Below, piece by piece: positions 22,408-30,028 of a stretch of DNA of 64,000 bases. The translations under genes and the position numbers were made by a program. The notes beneath the pieces were generated by a model that saw nothing but the letters and a program-made list of their open reading frames with translations, did no database searches and had not been told where the DNA came from. The DNA comes from Bacilli bacterium (GTDB lineage Bacteria > Bacillota_I > Bacilli_A > RF39 > UBA660), in the NCBI GenBank assembly GCA_051886215.1, contig JBJEXX010000016.1, forward strand, positions 4,877-68,876. Direction: 5' to 3'. Position 1 is the stretch's first letter. Each line of letters begins with the position of its first letter.

Positions 22408-23097
22408 ATGAAAGATTATACAAGTATAAAAAAGATAATATTAATTGTTGTTATAATTATTGCAATTATTTCTAGTTGTGTATATGGAATTATTTATTAT
22501 AAAAAACAAGAAAAAGAAAGTTTTGAAATAAGTGATAATTTAAATAAACCTAAAATTACAAATACTACTAAAAGTTCAACTGAAGAAAAAAGTAATTTGG
22601 TAGTAGATATAAAAGGAGAAATACAAAATCCAGGAATATATAGAGTAGAAAAAAATACTAGAGTAATAGATGTAATTAATATGGCAGGTGGATTAACAGA
22701 TAATGCTGATACATCAGTTATAAATTTAAGCAAAAAAATAACTGATGAAATGGTTATAATAATTTATTCTAAACAAGAAGTAATTAACTTTGTTGAAACA
22801 AAAAAACAAGAACAAGAAAAATTAAGTATTTGTAATGAACAAGAAGTAGTAAATGGTGCTTGTATAAAAGATAGTATAACTACTACTAATGAAGATAATA
22901 TAACAGGTAAAATAAATATAAATACTGCTACTACGGAGGAACTACAAAATCTTCCAGGAATAGGTGAGGCTAAAGCTAAAAATATAGTTAAATATCGTGA
23001 AGAAAATGGTAATTTTACTAAAATAGAAGATTTAAAAGAAGTAACAGGAATAGGAGATAGTATATATGATCAAATTAAGGACTATATTACTATCTAA
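22408..23097 (+). CDS. comEA: Competence protein ComEA (DNA receptor, tandem helix-hairpin-helix)
   Basis: TM anchor, SLBB-like middle (VDIKGEIQNPGIYRVEKNTRVIDVINMAGG) and a C-terminal HhH pair (ININTATTEELQNLPGIGEAKAKNIVKYREENGNFTKIEDLKEVTGIG). Confidence 0.75.
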   Translation: MKDYTSIKKIILIVVIIIAIISSCVYGIIYYKKQEKESFEISDNLNKPKITNTTKSSTEEKSNLVVDIKGEIQNPGIYRVEKNTRVIDVINMAGGLTDNADTSVINLSKKITDEMVIIIYSKQEVINFVETKKQEQEKLSICNEQEVVNGACIKDSITTTNEDNITGKININTATTEELQNLPGIGEAKAKNIVKYREENGNFTKIEDLKEVTGIGDSIYDQIKDYITI

Positions 23098-25135
23098 TAA
23101 ATTATATATTCTTATATTGATAATAGTAAGTTTTATTACTTTAATTAGAGTGAATATCAATTATAAAAGTAATTTTAAAAATGAAAATATAATAAAAGGT
23201 AAAGTTCAAGACATTTATATAGATGGTCCATATTTAAAAATAACTTTAAAATCAAAAGATAAAATAATATGTAATTATTATTTTAAAAATAAAGAAGAAT
23301 TAAAAAATTTTGATATTAAATTAGGAGATTTAATCGTTTTAAATGGATCGTTAGAAAATCCTAAAAATAATACTATACCTAATGTTTTTAATTATAAAAA
23401 ATATTTAAAATATAATAAAATTTATTATACTTTTAAAGTAGAAAGTTATAAAAAAATAAAAAATAATAATTCTATATTTTATTATTTTAAAAATATAATT
23501 ATTAATCATATAAATAAGTATAAATCATCTTCTTATTTAAAGGCTTTTATTTTGGGAGATACATCATACATAGATAGAAATGTATATAAAGCCTTTCAAG
23601 AAATAGGAATTTCTCATTTATTCGCTATATCCGGAATGCATATTTCTTTTTTATCAGGAATAATTTTATTTATTTTAAAAAAGTTAAAAGTAGAAGAAAA
23701 TAAAAGATATATAATCACTTCTGTAATATTATTTTTATATTTATTAATATGCTTTTCAGCATCTGTATTAAGAAGTTTCCTTTTTTTCTTTTTATTATCA
23801 ATAAATAAAATATATTATTTTTATATTAAGACAATTAATATTTTTATTTTAACTTTATCTATATCTTTATTAATAAATCCTTTTTTTATATATAATATTG
23901 GATTCTTATTTTCTTATATAATAAGTTTCTATTTAATTATTTTAAGTGAATATTTAAAAAAATTAACCAAAATAAAACAAACTATTATAGTATCAATCAT
24001 ATCTTTTTTAGTATCTTTTCCTCTTTCTATATATAATTTTTATCAAGTTAATATTTTAGCTATTATTTATAATTTGTTTTTTGTTCCACTAATATCTATA
24101 TTTTTATTTCCTTTTACTTTGATTACTTTTTTTATTCCGTTTTTAGATAATATTTTATTTTTTATAATAAATATTTTTGAATATATAGTTTTAATTTTAA
24201 ATAAGATAAATATATTTAAAATTATATTAGTAAAACCTTATATGATTGTTATTTTTATTTATTATTTAGTTATTACTTTATTGTTATTAAAACGTCAAAA
24301 AAAATATTTAGTTGTATTTTTATTAATGATATTTTTTCATTATAATGTAAATAACATTTTTTCTAGTAATTATTTAATAATGATAGATGTGGGTCAAGGA
24401 GATAGTATTCTTATTCATTTTAAAAATAAAAATATATTAATAGATACAGGAGGTATTTTTAATAATAATTCTTTTAAAAGAACTAGAACTTATGATTTAA
24501 GTGAAAGTACTTTATGTATGTTAAAATCTTTTGGAATAAGAAAACTAGATTTTTTAATTTTAACTCATGGGGACTCCGATCATATGGGAGAAGCTATTAA
24601 TTTAGTAGAAAACTTCAAAGTAGAGAAAGTTATATTTAACGTAGGAGATTATAATTATTTAGAGGAAGAATTAATAAAAATTTTAAATAAAAAAAGAATT
24701 AAATATTATAAAAATATAGAAAATTTAGATATTAATGGCAGTAAATTATATTTTTTAAATACTAAAATCTATGATAATGAGAATGATAATTCAAATGTTA
24801 TTTATTTTGAATTTAATAATTATAAGTTTCTATTTATGGGAGATGCAGGAATAGAAAAAGAAAAAGATATTCTAGTTAGATATGATTTAAAGGATATAGA
24901 TTTTTTAAAGATAGGTCATCATGGATCTAATACTTCTTCTAGTAAAGAGTTTATAGAAAGTGTTAATCTTAAATATAGTTTAATATCAGTAGGCTCCAAC
25001 AATAGATATGGACATCCAAAGGATAAAGTATTAGATGATTTAAAAAATAGTAAGATTTATAGAACAGATTTAGATGGGAGTATAGAAATAAAATTAAATA
25101 AAAATGGATATAGAATTAGGACATATACGCCATAG
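23066..25135 (+). CDS. comEC: DNA internalisation competence protein ComEC/Rec2 with C-terminal metallo-beta-lactamase domain
   Basis: Polytopic competence domain, then IMIDVGQGDSILIH...LILTHGDSDHMGEA...FMGDAG...GHHGS (MBL motifs). 32-nt overlap with comEA. Confidence 0.8.
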   Translation: MIKLRTILLSNKLYILILIIVSFITLIRVNINYKSNFKNENIIKGKVQDIYIDGPYLKITLKSKDKIICNYYFKNKEELKNFDIKLGDLIVLNGSLENPKNNTIPNVFNYKKYLKYNKIYYTFKVESYKKIKNNNSIFYYFKNIIINHINKYKSSSYLKAFILGDTSYIDRNVYKAFQEIGISHLFAISGMHISFLSGIILFILKKLKVEENKRYIITSVILFLYLLICFSASVLRSFLFFFLLSINKIYYFYIKTINIFILTLSISLLINPFFIYNIGFLFSYIISFYLIILSEYLKKLTKIKQTIIVSIISFLVSFPLSIYNFYQVNILAIIYNLFFVPLISIFLFPFTLITFFIPFLDNILFFIINIFEYIVLILNKINIFKIILVKPYMIVIFIYYLVITLLLLKRQKKYLVVFLLMIFFHYNVNNIFSSNYLIMIDVGQGDSILIHFKNKNILIDTGGIFNNNSFKRTRTYDLSESTLCMLKSFGIRKLDFLILTHGDSDHMGEAINLVENFKVEKVIFNVGDYNYLEEELIKILNKKRIKYYKNIENLDINGSKLYFLNTKIYDNENDNSNVIYFEFNNYKFLFMGDAGIEKEKDILVRYDLKDIDFLKIGHHGSNTSSSKEFIESVNLKYSLISVGSNNRYGHPKDKVLDDLKNSKIYRTDLDGSIEIKLNKNGYRIRTYTP

Positions 25136-25149
25136 AGAGGAGAATTAAA

Positions 25150-26040
25150 ATGAATTATTATGATGAGATAAAAAATAAGATAATAGATAATGAAGTATAT
25201 TCAAGAGTAAAAGATTATTCAAAGGAAAGAAATACTGTTATTACATATTTTGAAATCGGCAAATTATTAAATGAAGCAGGTGGTAAATATGGAGATAATA
25301 TTATTGATGAATATTCTAAAAGATTAGTCGTTGATGTTGGAAAGAAATATAATCGCAGAACATTATTTAGAATGAAGCAATTTTATAATGTGTTTAGTAA
25401 TGAAAAAGTGTCAACGCTGTTGACACAATTAAGTTGGTCACACTACTTGTTATTAATATCATTAAATGATTTTGATGAAATAATATATTATATTAACGTA
25501 GCTAAAGATAACAATTTATCACAAAGACAACTACAAGAAAGAATTAAAAATAATGAGTACAAAAGATTACCTATAGAAACAAGAAATAAAATAACAAATA
25601 ATGAATCGCTTAATATTAAAGATTTAGTACCTAATCCCATATTGATTAGAAATATAAATAATTTTGAAATAATTACGGAAAAAGTACTGCAAAATTTAAT
25701 ACTTGAAGATATTGAATCATTTATGAAAGAATTAGGTAATAATTTTAGTTTCATTGGTAGTAAATATAAAATTAAGATTGGTGATAATTATCATAAAATA
25801 GATTTACTATTATTTAATATAAAATATAATTCATATGTAGTTATTGAATTAAAGATTACTGAATTTAAAGTTGAATACATTTCGCAAGTACAAAAGTATA
25901 TGAACTATATTGATAAAAACTTAAAAGAAATTAGTAATAATAATACTATTGGAATAATTATCTGTAAGAAAGAAAATAGGTTTGTGATTGAGTACTGTTC
26001 TGATGAAAGAATTGCTGTAAGAGAATATCAATTAGTGTGA
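25150..26040 (+). CDS. DUF1016 / YhcG-family PDDEXK nuclease (paralog A)
   Basis: N-terminal LSWSHY block (typical of YhcG/DUF1016) and a C-terminal PD-(D/E)xK core (IDLLLFN...VVIELKITE). RBS GGAG upstream. Confidence 0.7.
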   Translation: MNYYDEIKNKIIDNEVYSRVKDYSKERNTVITYFEIGKLLNEAGGKYGDNIIDEYSKRLVVDVGKKYNRRTLFRMKQFYNVFSNEKVSTLLTQLSWSHYLLLISLNDFDEIIYYINVAKDNNLSQRQLQERIKNNEYKRLPIETRNKITNNESLNIKDLVPNPILIRNINNFEIITEKVLQNLILEDIESFMKELGNNFSFIGSKYKIKIGDNYHKIDLLLFNIKYNSYVVIELKITEFKVEYISQVQKYMNYIDKNLKEISNNNTIGIIICKKENRFVIEYCSDERIAVREYQLV

Positions 26041-26147
26041 TATAATATATATAGGAAGTGAATTATATGTACTATCATGTATCACAAACAAAAAATATTA
26101 ATATTTAGAACCTAGAATTTCAAATCATAATAAACCCTTAATATACT

Positions 26148-26479
26148 TTTCAAATAAAAGAGAAAATGTTTTAGTATATCTAAGCAATGCAGTAGAAAAG
26201 TATTGTAAAGAGAGTAATTTTAATTATAATGGAATTTGGAGCAAATGGGCATCTTACGGATTTACAAAAGATGGGGTGTTAGAAATACAAGAATATTATC
26301 CGAATGCCACTTATGAAACCTACCATGGTGTTAGTGGGTATATATATTCTACTGATAGTATACCAAATGTTGAAAAACAAGAAGATATTCCAAATGCTTT
26401 TCATACTAGCGAGAATGTGGAAGTTACTCATTGTGAATATATAGAAGATGCATATAAAGAAATACAAAAAGAAATATAG
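26148..26479 (+). pseudogene. Start-less open frame / gene remnant of unknown family
   Basis: The frame is open from the TAA at 26145 to 26479 with no ATG, and it reads protein-like sequence (…NGIWSKWASYGFTKDGVLEIQEYYPNATYETYHGVSGYIYSTDS...). Upstream frames from the ATG at 26068 are interrupted by stops. The ORF-track call (26276..26479) uses a TTG start. Confidence 0.25.
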
Positions 26480-26654
26480 TCCTAGTTAAATATGAGGAGT
26501 TTATTAAAACTAGCAAAGATTAGTTATATAAGACTATACAACAAGAGTATGATGAAGCAGTCGTGCATCCAGAATATAGTCATTTTTTAATCAATAAATT
26601 TCCATTTATAAATAAATAAAATAGAACTATCAATTTTGATGGTTTTTTCTTTTG

Positions 26655-27224
26655 TAAATAAAGAAACTATAACCATGTGCGTAACCGTTAGTCTCACATG
26701 GTAATCTAATCATATGGGTGAAGTTATTAATTTTCAAAGTAGAGAAATTAATCTTTAATTGTGGAGATTATAATTATTTAGAACAAAACTTAATTAAAGT
26801 ATTAGATAAAAAGAAAATACAATATTACTCATGTGTTAAAGAATTAAATATAGATAAGTGTAAATTATATTTTTTTAATAATAAAGATTATGATAATGAG
26901 AATAATAATTCAAATGTTATTTATTTTGAATTTAATAATTATAAATTTATATTTATGGGATATGCTGGAATAGATAAGGAAAAATATATATTGAATGAAT
27001 ATAATATATTTGATGTTGACGTATTAAAAGTAGGACATCATGGAAGTAAGATAAGTTCTAGCAAAAGTTTTATTGATGGGGTTAATACAAAATGCTCTGT
27101 AATTAGCGTTGGGGAAAATAATCGCTATGGACATCCGAATGATAGTGTATTAGATAATTTAAATAATTCAAAAATATATAGAACTAATATTGATGGTAGT
27201 ATATTGTTTAAAATAATAAATTAA
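26655..27224 (+). pseudogene. Duplicated, decayed 3' fragment of comEC (MBL-domain C-terminus)
   Basis: The DNA aligns with comEC ~24535-25135, for example ...catatggg(a/t)gaag.tattaatt...aaagtagagaaa(g/t)t and ...gataatgagaat(g/a)ataattcaaatgttatttattttgaatttaataattataa(g/a)ttt.tatttatggga. The HGDSDHMGEA motif is destroyed (SHMVI*) and MGDAG has become MGYAG. There is no start codon in context. Confidence 0.6.
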
Positions 27225-27260
27225 AAATAGAAACATGTACACCATAGAAAGGAGTAAAAA

Positions 27261-28157
27261 ATGGAAGAACAATATTATATAAGTATTAAAGAAAAATTAT
27301 TAAAAAGTGAAATATATGCTAAAGCAAGAGATTATGCAAAAGATAGAAATAAAGTTAAAGTTTACTATGAAATTGGAGAATTATTAAATAAAGCAGGTAA
27401 GGATTATGGTAAAAATATAATAAAACAATACTCTGAAAAGTTGATGATTGAAGTTGGTAAAAAATATAATGAAAGAACGTTATATGGAATGAGAAAATTT
27501 TATGAGCTTTTCAATGACGGAAAATTGAACCCAATGGGTTCAAAATTGAGTTGGAGTCACTTTAGAGAACTTCTAACATTAAAAGATACTGATGAAATAA
27601 AATATTATATAAGTATAAGTGAAGAAAATAATTTAACTAAAAGACAATTACACGAAAGAATAAAAAATAAAGAGTATGCTAGATTAAGTGATGTTGCAAA
27701 AGATAAAATATCAAATAATCATAAAGTAGATTTACCAGATATGATACCTAATCCAATTATTATTAAAGTCAATAATACAATAGAAAAATTAACTGAATAT
27801 GCTTTAAAAGAATTAATATTAAATAACTTAGATGAATTTTTAATTCAATTAGGTAATGGCTTTACGTATATTGGAAATGAGTTTAAAATCAAGTTAGGTG
27901 ATAGATATAACTTTATAGACTTATTCTTATACAACATTAAATATAAATGTTATGTAGTAATAGAATTAAAAGTAACTGAATTGAATTCTAATCATACAGG
28001 ACAGATTCAAAAATATATGAATTATGTAGATAGAAATATAAAGGCCATAGATGAAAATGATACAGTTGGTATTATAATTTGTAAGAAGAATAATCAGTAT
28101 GTAATAGATTACTGCAGTGATAAAAGAATTCTTTCAAGAGAATATGAATTAGTATGA
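27261..28157 (+). CDS. DUF1016 / YhcG-family PDDEXK nuclease (paralog B)
   Basis: Same architecture as 25150..26040 (LSWSHF block; IDLFLYN...VVIELKVTE). The two proteins are roughly 55% identical by eye. RBS GGAG upstream. Confidence 0.7.
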   Translation: MEEQYYISIKEKLLKSEIYAKARDYAKDRNKVKVYYEIGELLNKAGKDYGKNIIKQYSEKLMIEVGKKYNERTLYGMRKFYELFNDGKLNPMGSKLSWSHFRELLTLKDTDEIKYYISISEENNLTKRQLHERIKNKEYARLSDVAKDKISNNHKVDLPDMIPNPIIIKVNNTIEKLTEYALKELILNNLDEFLIQLGNGFTYIGNEFKIKLGDRYNFIDLFLYNIKYKCYVVIELKVTELNSNHTGQIQKYMNYVDRNIKAIDENDTVGIIICKKNNQYVIDYCSDKRILSREYELV

Positions 28158-28184
28158 TATAATGTAAAATATAGAGGTGAATTT

Positions 28185-29339
28185 ATGAATAATATATTTT
28201 TTACGATAGAGGGCTATAAATATTTAATTATGTATAACAATAAAAATTTTGAAATATATAAAGAAATACAAAATGAAATTATAAAATTGTCAGAAGAGGA
28301 AAATAATAAAATAAGAAAAATATTAAATCAAAAATACAATTATATTTATGATAGCCAAATACTTAATGAATTGGTCAATTCAAATGACAAAATAGAAAAT
28401 AAAGATTATATTATAAATATATTAAATTGGTTAGAACAAATTATTCCAGAAAATGATAGATCTAATTTTTATAATAATATTAAAAACCTTCAAACTCAGC
28501 TTAATTTAGATTTTTTAACTTCCGAAAAAAACATAGATTTATCTCAAGAATATTCTAAAGTTGGTGGATATAATACAACTGAAAATAAATTAATAATTTC
28601 TGAAGAAGCTTTAAATAATGAATTGAAAATAGCTAATATGACAAATAATCCAGAGGAATTTTTTTGGAGAAGTTATACCCAACCATTGTTACATGAGCTT
28701 TGCCATATGGCTTCCAGTAAATATGATTCAGAAACAAAAATATCGTTATGTGGATTTGATATATTTCCACCTTCTGGAGAAGGAGATAAAAATAGGGGAT
28801 TAACGGAAGGCTTCACAGAACTTATATCAATGGCAGGAGTACCTGGTACAATAGAAATTGCCTCTGGTTATTATATAGAAGCTTGTTTAATAAATCAATT
28901 GATTCAAGTGATAGGAAAAGACGTGTTTCTTAATGCTTATTTTTCTAATCTAGGAACTAAGCCAATAGAAGAAAAGTTACAAGGATTAATAGATGATGAA
29001 GATAAGTCATTTGAATTATTTAGAAATATTGAACTAAATTTTCAAATTAGAGATTTTGCTGAAAAACAGAATGTTTTAGGTAATATCCAAATGTCTATTT
29101 TAGATTATTTAGAACAGAAAATAGATCTATTATTATCAATAAATAATACAAAAGAAATAAATGAATGTTTAACAATATATGAACAAATGTTAATTACACC
29201 AGAAAAATTAAACACAATGAATAAAAATCCTAAAAATTATTGTGGTTTAGAAGAAAGTTTAATTCAATTTGATACAATAAAACAAAAGTGTAGTAATATT
29301 TTAATAGATAAAAGTGATACTATTCAATCAAAAAAATAA
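28185..29339 (+). CDS. Cytoplasmic HExxH...CG protein (putative zinc metallopeptidase of uncharacterised family), paralog 1
   Basis: No signal peptide. Motif PLLHELCHMASSKYDSETKISLCGFD. It shares the pattern HExxH-xx-S-x-Y-(D/N)-x-E-...-L-CG with the protein at 62516..63427. Confidence 0.4.
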   Translation: MNNIFFTIEGYKYLIMYNNKNFEIYKEIQNEIIKLSEEENNKIRKILNQKYNYIYDSQILNELVNSNDKIENKDYIINILNWLEQIIPENDRSNFYNNIKNLQTQLNLDFLTSEKNIDLSQEYSKVGGYNTTENKLIISEEALNNELKIANMTNNPEEFFWRSYTQPLLHELCHMASSKYDSETKISLCGFDIFPPSGEGDKNRGLTEGFTELISMAGVPGTIEIASGYYIEACLINQLIQVIGKDVFLNAYFSNLGTKPIEEKLQGLIDDEDKSFELFRNIELNFQIRDFAEKQNVLGNIQMSILDYLEQKIDLLLSINNTKEINECLTIYEQMLITPEKLNTMNKNPKNYCGLEESLIQFDTIKQKCSNILIDKSDTIQSKK

Positions 29340-29378: not shown

Positions 29379-29446
29379 AATACATATTTTTTAATATAAT
29401 GCATAATATATAATGTCACGAAAGTGTTCATATAGATTTAGCTTCC

Positions 29447-30028
29447 TTAATGGGAAGCTTTTATTTTTTTATTTATTTTATTTTTTATTTTAATATTATA
29501 TGAATTTATTAATTCAAGAATTTTATTGTCACATTCAAATTCATAAATTATTTTATTATCAAAAATTTTATTAATTATTTTTATATTTTTTAAGATATAA
29601 TCTATTTCTTTTTGAAGAGAATAATCGAATTCTATATCTACTTTAAAACCATCTATTTCTTCACAAATATTGTTATTAATTACTTCTTTAGCGGTATCTA
29701 CATATGCATGAATTAAGCCAGAAGCACCAAGTTTTATTCCACCAAAGTATCTGATAACTAATACTAAAACATTATTTAGGTTTTTCTTTTTTAATAATTC
29801 TAAAATTGGCATGCCTGCGGTACCGCTAGGTTCTCCATCATCACTCATTTTTTCATAAGCATCAGTAATATAAGCAAAACAACAATGAGTAGCGTCTTTA
29901 TATTTATCTCTATATTCTAGAATAAATTTATCTGCAGATTCTTTAGAATCTATTTCTAAAGATATTCCAATAAATTTGCTTTTTTTAATAATTAATTCTT
30001 TTTCTTTATTTTCAATGATTGTATTCAT
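29447..30028 (-). CDS. yigZ: YigZ / IMPACT-family protein (UPF0029)
   Basis: N-terminus ...ELIIKKSKFIGISLEIDSKESADKFILEYRDKYKDATHCCFAYI...GEPSGTAGMPIL... matches the IMPACT/YigZ fold. 193 aa. Confidence 0.7.
   Translation of the reverse strand: MNTIIENKEKELIIKKSKFIGISLEIDSKESADKFILEYRDKYKDATHCCFAYITDAYEKMSDDGEPSGTAGMPILELLKKKNLNNVLVLVIRYFGGIKLGASGLIHAYVDTAKEVINNNICEEIDGFKVDIEFDYSLQKEIDYILKNIKIINKIFDNKIIYEFECDNKILELINSYNIKIKNKINKKIKASH

What the first reader, a model, noticed from the sequence alone, without database searches (positions are those of the whole stretch)
24535..28157. Segmental duplication at the 3' end of comEC: [comEC MBL-domain tail + DUF1016 nuclease] is present twice, and the second comEC piece is a pseudogene
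DNA at ~26655-27224 aligns to comEC 24535-25135, with the HxHxDH metal site and start context destroyed. Each comEC tail is followed by its own DUF1016/YhcG PDDEXK nuclease; the two are only ~55% identical. A 680-bp stretch of dead coding sequence lies between them. This looks like either integration of foreign DNA at the comEC 3' end that brought a replacement 3' end and a nuclease cargo, or an old tandem duplication. The expected comEC-holA context is absent. A DNA-uptake gene followed by paired PDDEXK nucleases of unknown role is a plausible unrecognised defence or DNA-processing hotspot.
Basis: seen in the sequence. Interest (0 to 1): 0.7.

Follow-up and report, generated by a model that had tools for sequence, protein, structure and literature searches.

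The report
Phage-integrase scar array at comEC
The duplicated end of the DNA-uptake gene comEC marks a phage-integrase docking site inside that gene, where a foreign replacement gene-end carrying a nuclease gene was inserted and pushed the old gene-end downstream; related gut bacteria show the same event repeatedly, building arrays of displaced gene-ends and accessory genes.

Summary
The duplication is real. Window 24579-26069 aligns to 26709-28187 (70% nt identity, 1.5 kb): a comEC tail plus a DUF1016 nuclease gene, present twice.

It is not a tandem duplication. Homology starts exactly at the CAT (His501) codon of the HGDSDH metal motif. Directly upstream lie a terminator and a 27-nt element (26670-26696). 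This element belongs to a family I found at 72 such junctions in 6 of 40 related species and about 50 metagenome contigs. One subfamily is 100% identical, over 29-31 nt, to the P arm of the attP site of a temperate phage that encodes a large serine integrase. Related prophages sit integrated in comEC at this same CA.

Each junction is therefore an attR-type scar (P arm, CA, old tail). Nothing but the half-site is phage-derived, and the inserted units carry no integrase. Arrays of up to five displaced tails occur, with DUF1016 (PADLOC PDC-S02) and PDC-S13 as the commonest cargo.

dN/dS of about 0.3 shows the two tails diverged while both were functional. The best reading is an SCC-like set of non-autonomous cassettes at a phage attB, later reshuffled by homologous recombination. 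How the units are inserted is inferred, not shown.

The parts
23066..24565 (+). comEC backbone (residues 1-500), up to the recombination point; this is the B arm side of the attB
   Evidence: Pfam DUF4131, Competence and the start of Lactamase_B. The closest relatives (L012, L013, L003, at most 70% nt) are a different set of genomes from those closest to the tails.
24566..24567 (+). CA of the His501 codon (CAT): inferred crossover dinucleotide of the attB in the working comEC
   Evidence: Homology of all displaced tails begins here. It is the symmetry centre of the phage attP sites, 12+2+12 between the distal inverted repeats.
24566..25135 (+). Tail A: the working, incoming comEC 3' end (HGDSDH to the stop codon)
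   Evidence: In frame with the backbone, with all MBL motifs kept. 77.5% nt identity to tails in unrelated backbones such as L005.
25150..26040 (+). DUF1016-A: PD-(D/E)xK nuclease-family cargo gene of the incoming unit
   Evidence: Pfam DUF1016_N + YhcG_C. PADLOC PDC-S02, E 7e-61. 79.7% nt identity to a cassette copy in L044.
26067..26620 (+). Frameshifted small cargo gene (probable pseudogene) of the incoming unit
   Evidence: Three collinear ORF fragments after an RBS and ATG. No Pfam, PADLOC or phage-database hit. Only weak similarity (26% over 68 aa) to a cargo family found next to P arms in L055, L063 and L079.
26625..26663 (+). Terminator hairpin, T-run and the conserved CTTTTGTAAATAAAG spacer
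   Evidence: RNA fold -10.5 kcal/mol, z = -3.4. The same hairpin/T-run/spacer layout precedes the half-site in many cassettes.
26670..26696 (+). Phage-type attP P half-site (T3 family, degenerate): TAACCATGTGCGTAACCGTTAGTCTCA
   Evidence: The motif TGTGCGTAACCGNTAGTC is unique in the window, with 0 of 100 shuffles matching. It aligns with T3 modules of L070, L093, L060 and L065. It shares GTGCGTAAC, in inverted orientation, with the P' arm of the L032 prophage, and ATGTGC(A/G)TAA with the P arm of phage L095.
26697..27245 (+). Tail B: the displaced former comEC 3' end, now a pseudogene (attR-type junction at 26697)
   Evidence: 68% aa identity to comEC 517-677. Metal motif destroyed, D to Y in GDAG, 3' frameshift. 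dN/dS against tail A is about 0.30.
27261..28157 (+). DUF1016-B: the nuclease gene that belonged with the former tail
   Evidence: Pfam and PADLOC matches as for copy A. 53% aa identity to A. Closest to the L029 and L061 copies at 76% nt.
28185..29339 (+). 384-aa protein with an HExxH motif; distal accessory gene of the hotspot (membership uncertain)
   Evidence: No Pfam or PADLOC hit. 25% identity to an ORF that follows the last displaced tail in L063. A terminator lies at 29440-29459.

Best explanation
comEC in this lineage contains the attachment site (attB) of temperate phages that use a large serine integrase. The crossover lies at the CA of the His501 codon, in the HGDxDH metal motif of the C-terminal MBL nuclease domain.

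The window records one recombination event at that site. A 2.13-kb unit now sits between the comEC 5' part and the former gene end. The unit consists of replacement tail A, DUF1016-A, a small gene that is now dead, a terminator, and a 27-nt attP P half-site. comEC stays intact because the unit supplies the last 189 codons. The former tail B and its DUF1016-B are left downstream as an attR-type scar (P arm, CA, old tail), and tail B is decaying.

Shown: the site, the half-site's identity with phage attP, prophages integrated at the same CA, recurrence and independent events, and exchange of [tail + cargo] between divergent backbones.

Inferred: the unit has no integrase and no phage DNA beyond the half-site. 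It is therefore most likely a non-autonomous cassette moved by integrase supplied in trans by comEC-targeting phages, as SCC-like cassettes are moved by Ccr. One route that obeys integrase rules runs as follows. In a lysogen that already has an array, excision between attL and a distal attR loads a cassette onto the phage. After integration in a new host, excision with the proximal attR leaves the cassette behind. Homologous recombination between the repeated tails then reshuffles the cargo.
For: Junction anatomy:
- In 6 species genomes and about 50 metagenome contigs, every displaced tail starts at CATGG of the HGD codons. Each is preceded by a terminator plus a roughly 29-nt element ending RTCACCA, in three families (T1 36, T2 23, T3 9 of 72 junctions).

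Link to phage:
- L032 has comEC cut at the same CA by a prophage with a 477-aa Resolvase + Recombinase + Zn-ribbon integrase, a cI-like repressor, and a P' arm that mirrors the T3 modules.
- Five free phages with related integrases (67-92% identity) carry symmetric attP sites centred on CA. Two more are integrated in comEC.
- The P arm of phage L099 matches the T2 module at 100% over 29-31 nt in at least 10 contigs. Similarity stops at the half-site boundary, and no lysin or holin remnant occurs in any array.

Independent events:
- One displaced tail type is joined to three different upstream units and P arms at the same nucleotide. The same unit also abuts different tails.

Exchange between backbones:
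- In L048/L054 and L061/L029, identity jumps from about 50% to 80-95% at the HGD codons. It stays high through the tail and first cargo gene for about 1.4 kb.

The window itself:
- The P-arm motif is unique and not a chance match and aligns with the family.
- dN/dS of the tails is 0.30.
- The tails and DUF1016 genes are 75-80% identical to cassette copies, while the backbone is at most 70% identical to anything.

Precedents:
- Serine-recombinase prophages insert at a fixed dinucleotide in streptococcal comEC (PMC4260502).
- Ccr large serine recombinases mobilise tandem recombinase-less cassettes at rlmH (PMC11470126).
Against: - No integrase was found in the 64-kb window or in any array contig. 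The search was limited to phmmer with one tyrosine and one serine recombinase plus a motif scan.
- No cassette was seen on a phage genome or as a circle: three viral scans were negative. Only 7 contigs of this phage family are in the viral collection.
- A cassette site is formally attR-like (P arm plus B' arm). Canonical large serine integrases do not recombine attR with attB, so the direct insertion reaction is unexplained.
- How the first cassette acquired a half-site next to its cargo is unresolved.
- The left junction can only be placed to about +/-30 nt, and a conserved block just downstream could equally anchor homologous recombination.
- Homologous recombination clearly acts. L067/L011 break about 250 nt into the tail. 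The L060/L088 and L058/L066 differences have ends at tail stop codons, not at CA.
- Remnants show no proximal-to-distal decay gradient.
- No close relative of the window genome was available, so the event itself cannot be dated or polarised directly.
Confidence: 0.6

Rival explanations
1. Tail displacement by homologous recombination only. A few ancient phage integrations left P-arm scars. Since then, [tail - cargo - scar - tail] segments have spread between genomes by natural transformation, using the conserved motif-coding blocks of the tails as homology arms. This is how orphan toxin-tip/immunity modules accumulate downstream of rhs and cdiA genes. The half-sites would be passive passengers.
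For: - A block of about 55 nt just after the HGD codons is highly conserved, so crossovers would cluster there.
- Breakpoints also occur inside tails or at tail ends (L067/L011 at +250; L060/L088; L058/L066).
- These organisms encode comEA and comEC.
- No integrase lies near any array, and no phage-borne cassettes were found.
Against: - The same displaced tail is joined to three different half-sites at the same nucleotide. This needs separate site-specific events.
- Half-sites are 100% identical to a present-day phage attP over 29-31 nt in at least 10 contexts whose flanks are unrelated. That is hard to reconcile with old neutral scars.
- Not one of 72 scars keeps phage DNA beyond the half-site.
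- In a lysogen the conserved block lies on the far side of the prophage, so it cannot anchor the left crossover.
Confidence: 0.25
2. Decayed 'restorative' prophage. A phage that carried its own comEC 3' end next to attP integrated here, as e14 and phage 21 do for icd. Its body, including the integrase, was then deleted, leaving tail A, a few cargo genes and the right end.
For: - Prophages of this family do integrate at this CA.
- Carrying a replacement 3' end is a known phage strategy (own knowledge of e14 and phage 21 in icd).
Against: - All seven related phages or prophages have the integrase gene, not a comEC tail, next to the P' arm, and they disrupt comEC.
- Their P side ends in holin, endolysin and terminator, and no trace of these is found in any of the arrays.
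- None of 72 junctions has more than 3.7 kb between a tail and the next half-site, although many come from contigs of 60-880 kb.
Confidence: 0.08
3. Old in-place tandem duplication of [comEC tail + DUF1016], followed by decay of one tail and insertion of the spacer gene.
For: The two copies are collinear and in the same orientation, 2.13 kb apart.
Against: - dN/dS of the tail pair is 0.30, equal to that of the two intact nuclease genes. About 0.6 would be expected if one copy had been free of selection since the duplication.
- The junction carries a phage half-site that is not comEC-derived.
- The second copy starts at the same nucleotide as in dozens of unrelated genomes.
- No copy of the spacer follows the second unit.
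Confidence: 0.02

Closest known systems
SCCmec / SCC-like composite islands at rlmH (orfX), moved by the Ccr large serine recombinases; also the Enterococcus cassette chromosome
   Same: The site lies in the 3' part of a conserved housekeeping gene, which stays intact. Tandem arrays of units are separated by repeated att sequences. Many units lack their own recombinase and are mobilised in trans. Cargo is enriched in defence genes (PMC11470126, PMC6222049).
   Different: - Here the site is 570 nt from the stop codon, so every unit must carry a 189-codon replacement gene end rather than about 15-20 nt.
- The only integrases found are phage-borne, not cassette-borne.
- Units are tiny (about 1-2.5 kb).
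- The repeats are attR-type (P arm plus gene tail).
- No mobilisation has been demonstrated.
Phi1207.3 / Phi10394.4 / Tn1207.1 in streptococcal comEC (celB)
   Same: Prophages or elements with serine recombinases that integrate at one fixed dinucleotide inside the comEC coding sequence (PMC4260502). This fits the idea that mobile elements target competence genes (PMC12637031, PMC4774983).
   Different: Those insertions disrupt comEC and leave no replacement tail or array. The dinucleotide (GA) is different, and I did not determine whether the position in the gene is the same.
Listeria A118 / phi10403S in comK, and SPbeta in spsM (serine-integrase prophages as gene-interrupting switches)
   Same: A large serine integrase has its attB inside a competence or development gene, and precise excision restores the gene (PMC3556126, PMC5499854).
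   Different: No tail duplication and no cassettes. The gene is off while the prophage is present.
e14 / phage 21 integration in icd, and tRNA-gene islands that carry a replacement 3' end
   Same: The incoming element supplies a new 3' end so that the target gene stays functional. The old 3' end remains as a pseudo-copy at the far junction (own knowledge).
   Different: Those are complete elements with tyrosine integrases and a homologous core. They give one duplicate per element and do not form arrays of integrase-less units.
Orphan toxin-tip/immunity arrays of rhs and cdiA loci, and T6SS effector displacement in Vibrio
   Same: A working gene is followed by truncated former 3' ends, each with its own downstream partner gene. 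Truncation falls at a conserved motif (own knowledge).
   Different: Those are made by homologous recombination with no att half-site at the junction, and the tip and partner are functionally matched as toxin and immunity protein. Here a phage half-site marks every junction and the cargo is heterogeneous.
Integrons
   Same: A polar array of small, recombinase-less, mostly single-gene cassettes at one site downstream of a promoter-bearing gene.
   Different: No IntI tyrosine recombinase, attI or attC hairpins. The sites here are of serine-integrase type, and each cassette includes part of the target gene.

Membership tests
attR-type scar of a large-serine-integrase phage at comEC | The sequence left of the junction matches the P arm of a phage attP | tested here: met
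   T2 modules are 100% identical over 29-31 nt to the phage L099 P arm in at least 10 contigs. The window's T3-type element aligns with family members. It shares its distal motif with the L032 P' arm (inverted) and with the L095 P arm. No free phage with an exact T3 or T1 P arm was found.
attR-type scar of a large-serine-integrase phage at comEC | Phages of the family are found integrated at the same nucleotide of the target gene | tested here: met
   L032, L096 and L098 have comEC interrupted at the CA of the HGD His codon, with the integrase gene adjacent.
attR-type scar of a large-serine-integrase phage at comEC | The integrase is a large serine recombinase, and attP is an imperfect palindrome around a central dinucleotide | tested here: met
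   Pfam Resolvase, Recombinase and Zn_ribbon_recom domains. P and P' arms match at 18-19 of 30 positions, with distal 11-13-nt inverted repeats about 12 nt from CA. Cleavage at CA is inferred from symmetry and has not been measured.
SCC-like non-autonomous cassette array | Tandem units bounded by repeated att sequences downstream of an intact target gene, most of them without a recombinase gene | tested here: met
   Arrays hold up to 4 class-A junctions, and up to 5 scars counting class-B. No recombinase ORF is present in any array contig.
SCC-like non-autonomous cassette array | Units excise, circularise and integrate through a recombinase supplied in trans | not testable with these tools
   Only indirect evidence is available: the same unit sits next to different tails and vice versa, and near-identical strains differ by whole units. 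No circle or phage-borne copy was found.
Integron | IntI tyrosine recombinase with attI and attC sites | tested here: not met
   No tyrosine recombinase lies adjacent, except a clade-specific Xer-like gene in 4 loci. The junction elements match serine-integrase attP arms.
Orphan-module array made by homologous recombination (rhs/cdiA type) | Junctions consist only of target-gene sequence truncated at a conserved motif | tested here: not met
   Every class-A junction carries a roughly 29-nt element that is not comEC-derived.
Tandem segmental duplication | The copies diverged in place, with one copy free of selection since the duplication | tested here: not met
   dN/dS is 0.30 for the tails, the same as for the intact DUF1016 pair. 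A foreign half-site lies at the junction.
DUF1016 / YhcG PD-(D/E)xK nuclease family (PADLOC candidate PDC-S02) | DUF1016_N and YhcG_C domains above the Pfam thresholds, with the D...ExK signature | tested here: met
   Both copies pass. PADLOC gives E about 1e-61. The sequences ...IDL...VIELK... are kept in both (read from the alignment). Nuclease and defence activity remain untested, and there is no solved-structure relative by sequence.

The most novel reading that the evidence does not exclude
A previously undescribed cassette system works against phage sabotage of competence. Temperate phages knock out comEC by serine-integrase insertion. Small integrase-less cassettes carry a spare comEC end plus a P half-site. 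They use the phage's own integrase (with its directionality factor) to rejoin comEC to a working tail, and they deposit defence-type cargo expressed from the competence operon.

The displaced tails would be kept as a reusable reservoir, because any attR can be chosen at the next excision. That would explain why 45% of the remnants remain fully open reading frames.
Probability: 0.3. Interest if true: 0.85.

Novelty: new variant of a known kind. Interest (0 to 1): 0.66.

Why it matters
Mobile elements are known to insert into competence genes, and this is read as a way of blocking their own removal by transformation. This locus shows the other half of that conflict: comEC genes that were hit and then ended up intact again with a foreign gene end.

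Each such event leaves a dated scar and a piece of accessory cargo. The arrays are therefore a readable record of repeated phage-host encounters in uncultured gut Bacilli.

If the units are mobilised in trans by phage integrases, this would be a second example, alongside SCC elements, of recombinase-less cassettes building defence-rich arrays at a housekeeping gene. Here each cassette would also have to carry a third of an enzyme domain.

The analysis also has three practical consequences:
- It defines a new natural attB/attP family for large serine integrases.
- It gives DUF1016 (PDC-S02) and PDC-S13 a concrete genomic context, directly after and probably co-transcribed with comEC, in which their function could be tested.
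- It cautions annotators that comEC fragments downstream of comEC are att scars, not assembly errors.

Tried and rejected
- **DUF1016 as a homing nuclease or cassette recombinase:** rejected. Many units carry PDC-S13 or only small unrelated genes instead.
- **Xer/dif-like site:** considered, because T1 contains GCATAA-like arms and four loci have a Xer-like gene downstream. Rejected: the match to dif is poor, the gene is clade-specific, and the elements match serine-integrase attP arms.
- **Junction element as comEC-derived, as a promoter, or as a start codon:** T2 forms TTGACA-N16-TATGAT with the HGDYDH codons, and T1 supplies an in-frame ATG. Neither feature is shared by all types.
- **Viral scans:**
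  - Junction motif: 0 hits.
  - T1 arm: 0 hits.
  - Class-B arm: 12 chance hits in unrelated phage coding sequence.
  - Tail alignment: 19 contigs, all stand-alone MBL-fold genes with intact N-termini and no half-site.
- **Exact look-up of the window's comEC in public assemblies:** not on record. No strain-level comparison of this genome was possible.
- **Spacer gene:** no Pfam, PADLOC or phage-database match.
- **Proximal-to-distal decay gradient in arrays:** none.
- **Two Pfam calls failed** because I used coordinates from my re-oriented copies of the loci. They were repeated with protein sequences.
- **Literature:** no paper combines comEC with DUF1016. None was found describing duplicated comEC 3' ends.

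Full report
**1. The observation**

The window is very AT-rich (about 20% G+C). On the + strand it encodes, in order:
- comEA (22408-23097)
- comEC (23066-25135; DUF4131, Competence and Lactamase_B domains)
- a DUF1016_N/YhcG_C protein (25150-26040)
- a 668-bp stretch without an intact gene
- a 168-codon ORF resembling the comEC C-terminus (26718-27224)
- a second DUF1016 protein (27261-28157)
- a 384-aa protein with no family match

BLASTN finds one repeat pair in the whole window: 24579-26069 against 26709-28187, 69.6% identity over 1508 bp. The two nucleases are 53% identical. The comEC-like ORF is 68% identical to comEC residues 517-677.

By alignment, the homology starts at 24566/26697, which is the CAT codon of His501 in the metal motif HGDSDH.

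The second tail is a pseudogene:
- Its motif codons are mutated and carry a 1-nt deletion.
- About 11 nt are missing a little further on.
- The invariant Asp of GDAG is Tyr.
- The last 11 codons are out of frame.

**2. Not an in-place duplication**

Nei-Gojobori estimates give dN 0.26 and dS 0.85 for tail A against tail B. The two intact nuclease genes give dN 0.34 and dS 1.13. Both ratios are about 0.30. Most of the divergence therefore accumulated while both tails were under purifying selection, that is, in different genomes.

**3. The architecture recurs and has a precise boundary**

A scan of one genome per species returned 40 comEC loci from uncultured gut Bacilli, 42-54% identical in protein. 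Six of them (L005, L006, L007, L029, L033, L036) have an intact comEC followed by cargo and then a truncated comEC tail.

In all six the truncated copy begins at CATGGAGAT, the H-G-D codons. It is preceded by a terminator and about 29 nt of G+C-richer sequence ending (A/G)TCACCA. The intact genes have TTAACT or similar at that position.

One metagenome scan with the junction motif returned 54 contigs, 52 of which are such junctions. Many contigs carry arrays: one intact comEC followed by two to four displaced tails, each with its own cargo (L084, L082, L061, L088, L044).

The 29-nt elements fall into three families of equal length: T1 (36), T2 (23) and T3 (9) out of 72 junctions. The window's TAACCATGTGCGTAACCGTTAGTCTCA is a degenerate T3 member. 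Its core is unique in the window and absent from 100 shuffles. It aligns with the T3 modules, including the preceding hairpin, T-run and CTTTTGTAAATAAAG spacer.

**4. What the junction element is**

In L032, comEC stops at the same CA and is followed by ...TGGACATTGAGTGTTACGCACACGATTTA. Next comes a 477-aa large serine recombinase (Resolvase, Recombinase and Zn-ribbon domains), then a cI-like repressor, a Cro-like DUF739 protein, replication genes and an HNH protein. This is a temperate prophage. The reverse complement of its arm contains TCGTGTGCGTAAC, the core of the T3 modules.

Seven viral contigs encode integrases 67-92% identical to this one. Five are free phage genomes with a complete attP immediately 3' of the integrase gene, and two are integrated in comEC. 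Each attP is an imperfect palindrome. The distal 11-13-nt inverted repeats lie about 12 nt either side of a central CA, and the P arm ends ...CCA.

The P arm of phage L099 (TTATTCGACTTACTTTTTGACAATCACCA) is the T2 module. It matches at least 10 contigs at 100% over 29-31 nt. Every displaced-tail junction is therefore formally an attR: a phage P arm, the crossover CA, and the former comEC tail.

The integrase is 33-36% identical to those of phiCD27 and the E. faecalis phiFL phages. Serine-recombinase prophages that integrate at a fixed dinucleotide in streptococcal comEC are on record (PMC4260502). Insertion of prophages into competence genes is a recognised theme (PMC12637031, PMC4774983).

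**5. The inserted units are not decayed prophages**

In the free phages the P side reads holin, endolysin, terminator, P arm. No lysin or holin remnant occurs in any array or in the window. Nucleotide similarity between phage and arrays stops at the outer edge of the half-site.

No recombinase ORF is present in any array contig or in the 64-kb window, within the limits of the two searches used. The distance from a tail to the next half-site never exceeds 3.7 kb, although many contigs are 60-880 kb long.

Cargo is dominated by DUF1016 (25 of 94 ORFs; PADLOC candidate PDC-S02) and a Bro-N/DinD-like protein (11; PDC-S13). The rest comprises 41 small families, including peptidase-like, NUDIX/NrtR, DUF218, HD, Fic and GNAT proteins.

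**6. Evidence for repeated, independent events and for exchange**

- One displaced-tail type (at least 93% identical) is preceded by three different upstream units with three different half-sites, all joined at the same nucleotide. Conversely, the same upstream unit abuts different tails.
- Among 47 intact comEC genes, identity in the 450 nt upstream of the HGD codons and in the 560 nt downstream is barely correlated (r = 0.24). Some pairs are 54-58% identical upstream but 82-86% downstream. L015/L018 are 90% upstream and 70% downstream.
- Sliding windows place the jump at the HGD codons (+/-30 nt) for L048/L054 and L061/L029. High identity then continues through the first cargo gene for about 1.4 kb.
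- In the window, the tails and nucleases are 75-80% identical to cassette copies in many lineages. The comEC backbone is at most 70% identical to anything, and to a different set of genomes.
- Strain-level polymorphism is abundant in relatives. L058 and L066 are 98.7% identical through comEC, then carry different cargo and half-sites, then the same displaced tail. L060 has one unit more than L088. L094 lacks a 4-kb block that L088 has.

**7. Mechanism: shown and inferred**

Shown by sequence: there is an attB for large-serine-integrase phages at the His501 codon. The right end of the 2.13-kb unit in the window is a P half-site fused at CA to the former tail. Tail B was therefore once joined to the comEC 5' part, and tail A is the newer one.

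Inferred: the means by which an integrase-less unit with a replacement tail was placed there. A cassette site is attR-like, and canonical serine integrases recombine only attP with attB, or attL with attR when the directionality factor is present.

One route obeys those rules:
1. A phage integrates in a host that already has an array.
2. Excision between attL and a distal attR loads the intervening unit onto the phage, next to its attP.
3. After integration in a new host, excision with the proximal attR leaves the unit behind, bounded on both sides by integrase crossovers.

Intermolecular recombination of attL with a cassette attR in a lysogen is a second possibility.

Neither route is demonstrated. 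No phage-borne cassette was found in three viral scans, although only seven contigs of this phage family were available. The origin of the first cassette is unexplained.

Homologous recombination between the repeated tails also operates. Some breakpoints lie inside tails or at tail ends. Recombination alone is the main rival explanation. It fits poorly with three findings: multiple junctions on one tail type, half-sites identical to a living phage in unrelated contexts, and the complete absence of other phage DNA.

**8. An unexplained feature**

Of 58 displaced tails with enough downstream sequence, 26 are open from CA to the natural stop codon (at least 170 codons). Out-of-frame controls average 8 codons, with a maximum of 32. 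There is no proximal-to-distal gradient. Either turnover is fast, or the displaced tails are periodically reused as the working gene end, which the alternative-attR route would allow.

**9. Comparison with known systems, and verdict**

The closest analogue is the SCC family. There, Ccr large serine recombinases act at the 3' end of rlmH, and tandem recombinase-less, defence-rich cassettes accumulate and are mobilised in trans (PMC11470126, PMC6222049).

The present system differs in four ways:
- The site is 570 nt inside the gene, so each unit carries a 189-codon replacement end.
- The only integrases seen are phage-borne.
- The units are very small.
- The junctions are attR-type.

It also combines features of comEC- and comK-targeting prophages, of 3'-end-replacing elements such as e14 in icd, and of orphan-tail arrays in rhs and cdiA loci. 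I found no description of it in the searchable literature.

I rate it a new variant of a known kind. The anatomy is well supported. The mechanism of cassette insertion is open and directly testable.

Noticed in passing
L045 ~1692, L048 ~2475 and ~3060, L082 ~7782 and ~8653, L065 ~3399, L061 ~6952, L055 ~3216, L078 ~2055 (coordinates in my re-oriented copies of the loci): A second class of short displaced comEC fragments covers the last ~50 codons, starting at the I-(S/P)-V-G..N.YGHP motif. Its own conserved left junction is terminator + (TTACA)TATGTAYTAACTAYTCA|ATACCAGTTGG. The junction is palindromic (CTAACT-N10-AGTTGG), which suggests a second attB in comEC. No matching phage was found. Absent from the window.
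   Followed up: partly
All class-A remnants in L005-L094: 26 of 58 displaced tails are still open reading frames from the crossover to the natural stop. Out-of-frame controls average 8 codons. There is no decay gradient along arrays. This points to either rapid turnover or selection on 'silent' tails.
   Followed up: partly
L017 4289-5179, L018 14623-15516, L029 16786-17679, L030 14513-15403: Orthologous Xer-like tyrosine recombinase genes lie 1.4-4.7 kb downstream of comEC in one clade only. This is probably a housekeeping neighbour, but a role at the hotspot was not excluded.
   Followed up: partly
T2 junctions, e.g. L005 13536-13590: The T2 P arm together with the HGDYDH codons forms TTGACA-N16-TATGAT, a near-consensus sigma-70 promoter pointing into the displaced tail and its cargo. 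T1 arms instead supply an in-frame ATG (MHKRMSPHGD...). Neither feature is universal.
   Followed up: no
window 26625-26663 and many cassettes (L082, L057, L044, L045, L048, L068): A conserved terminator hairpin family (GAAYTATCA-N4-TGATAGTTC + TTTTTCTTTG) precedes half-sites of different types, including class B. The cassette 3' module is therefore conserved beyond the half-site itself.
   Followed up: no
L035 (end of contig), L034: The L035 contig ends exactly at ...ATAATCACACA, the CA of the His codon. This is the kind of assembly break expected where lysogen and non-lysogen, or different arrays, coexist in one sample.
   Followed up: no
window 28185-29339: A 384-aa protein with an HExxH motif (LLHELCHM) has no Pfam or PADLOC match. 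It is 25% identical to an ORF that follows the last displaced tail in L063. It is possibly another hotspot cargo gene.
   Followed up: partly
L114-L132 (viral/prophage contigs): Stand-alone MBL-fold genes related to the comEC C-terminal domain (32-54% identity, HP(H/D)xDH motif, intact N-terminal part) are common in prophage-derived contigs of other Firmicutes-like hosts. Their role was not examined.
   Followed up: no
L058 2393-2461 vs L066 9065-9131: Two strains are 95-99% identical on both sides of the junction, yet their P arms differ at about 8 of 30 positions (T3-like against T1-like) and their cargo differs. The half-site and cargo appear to be exchanged together between fixed tails.
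   Followed up: partly
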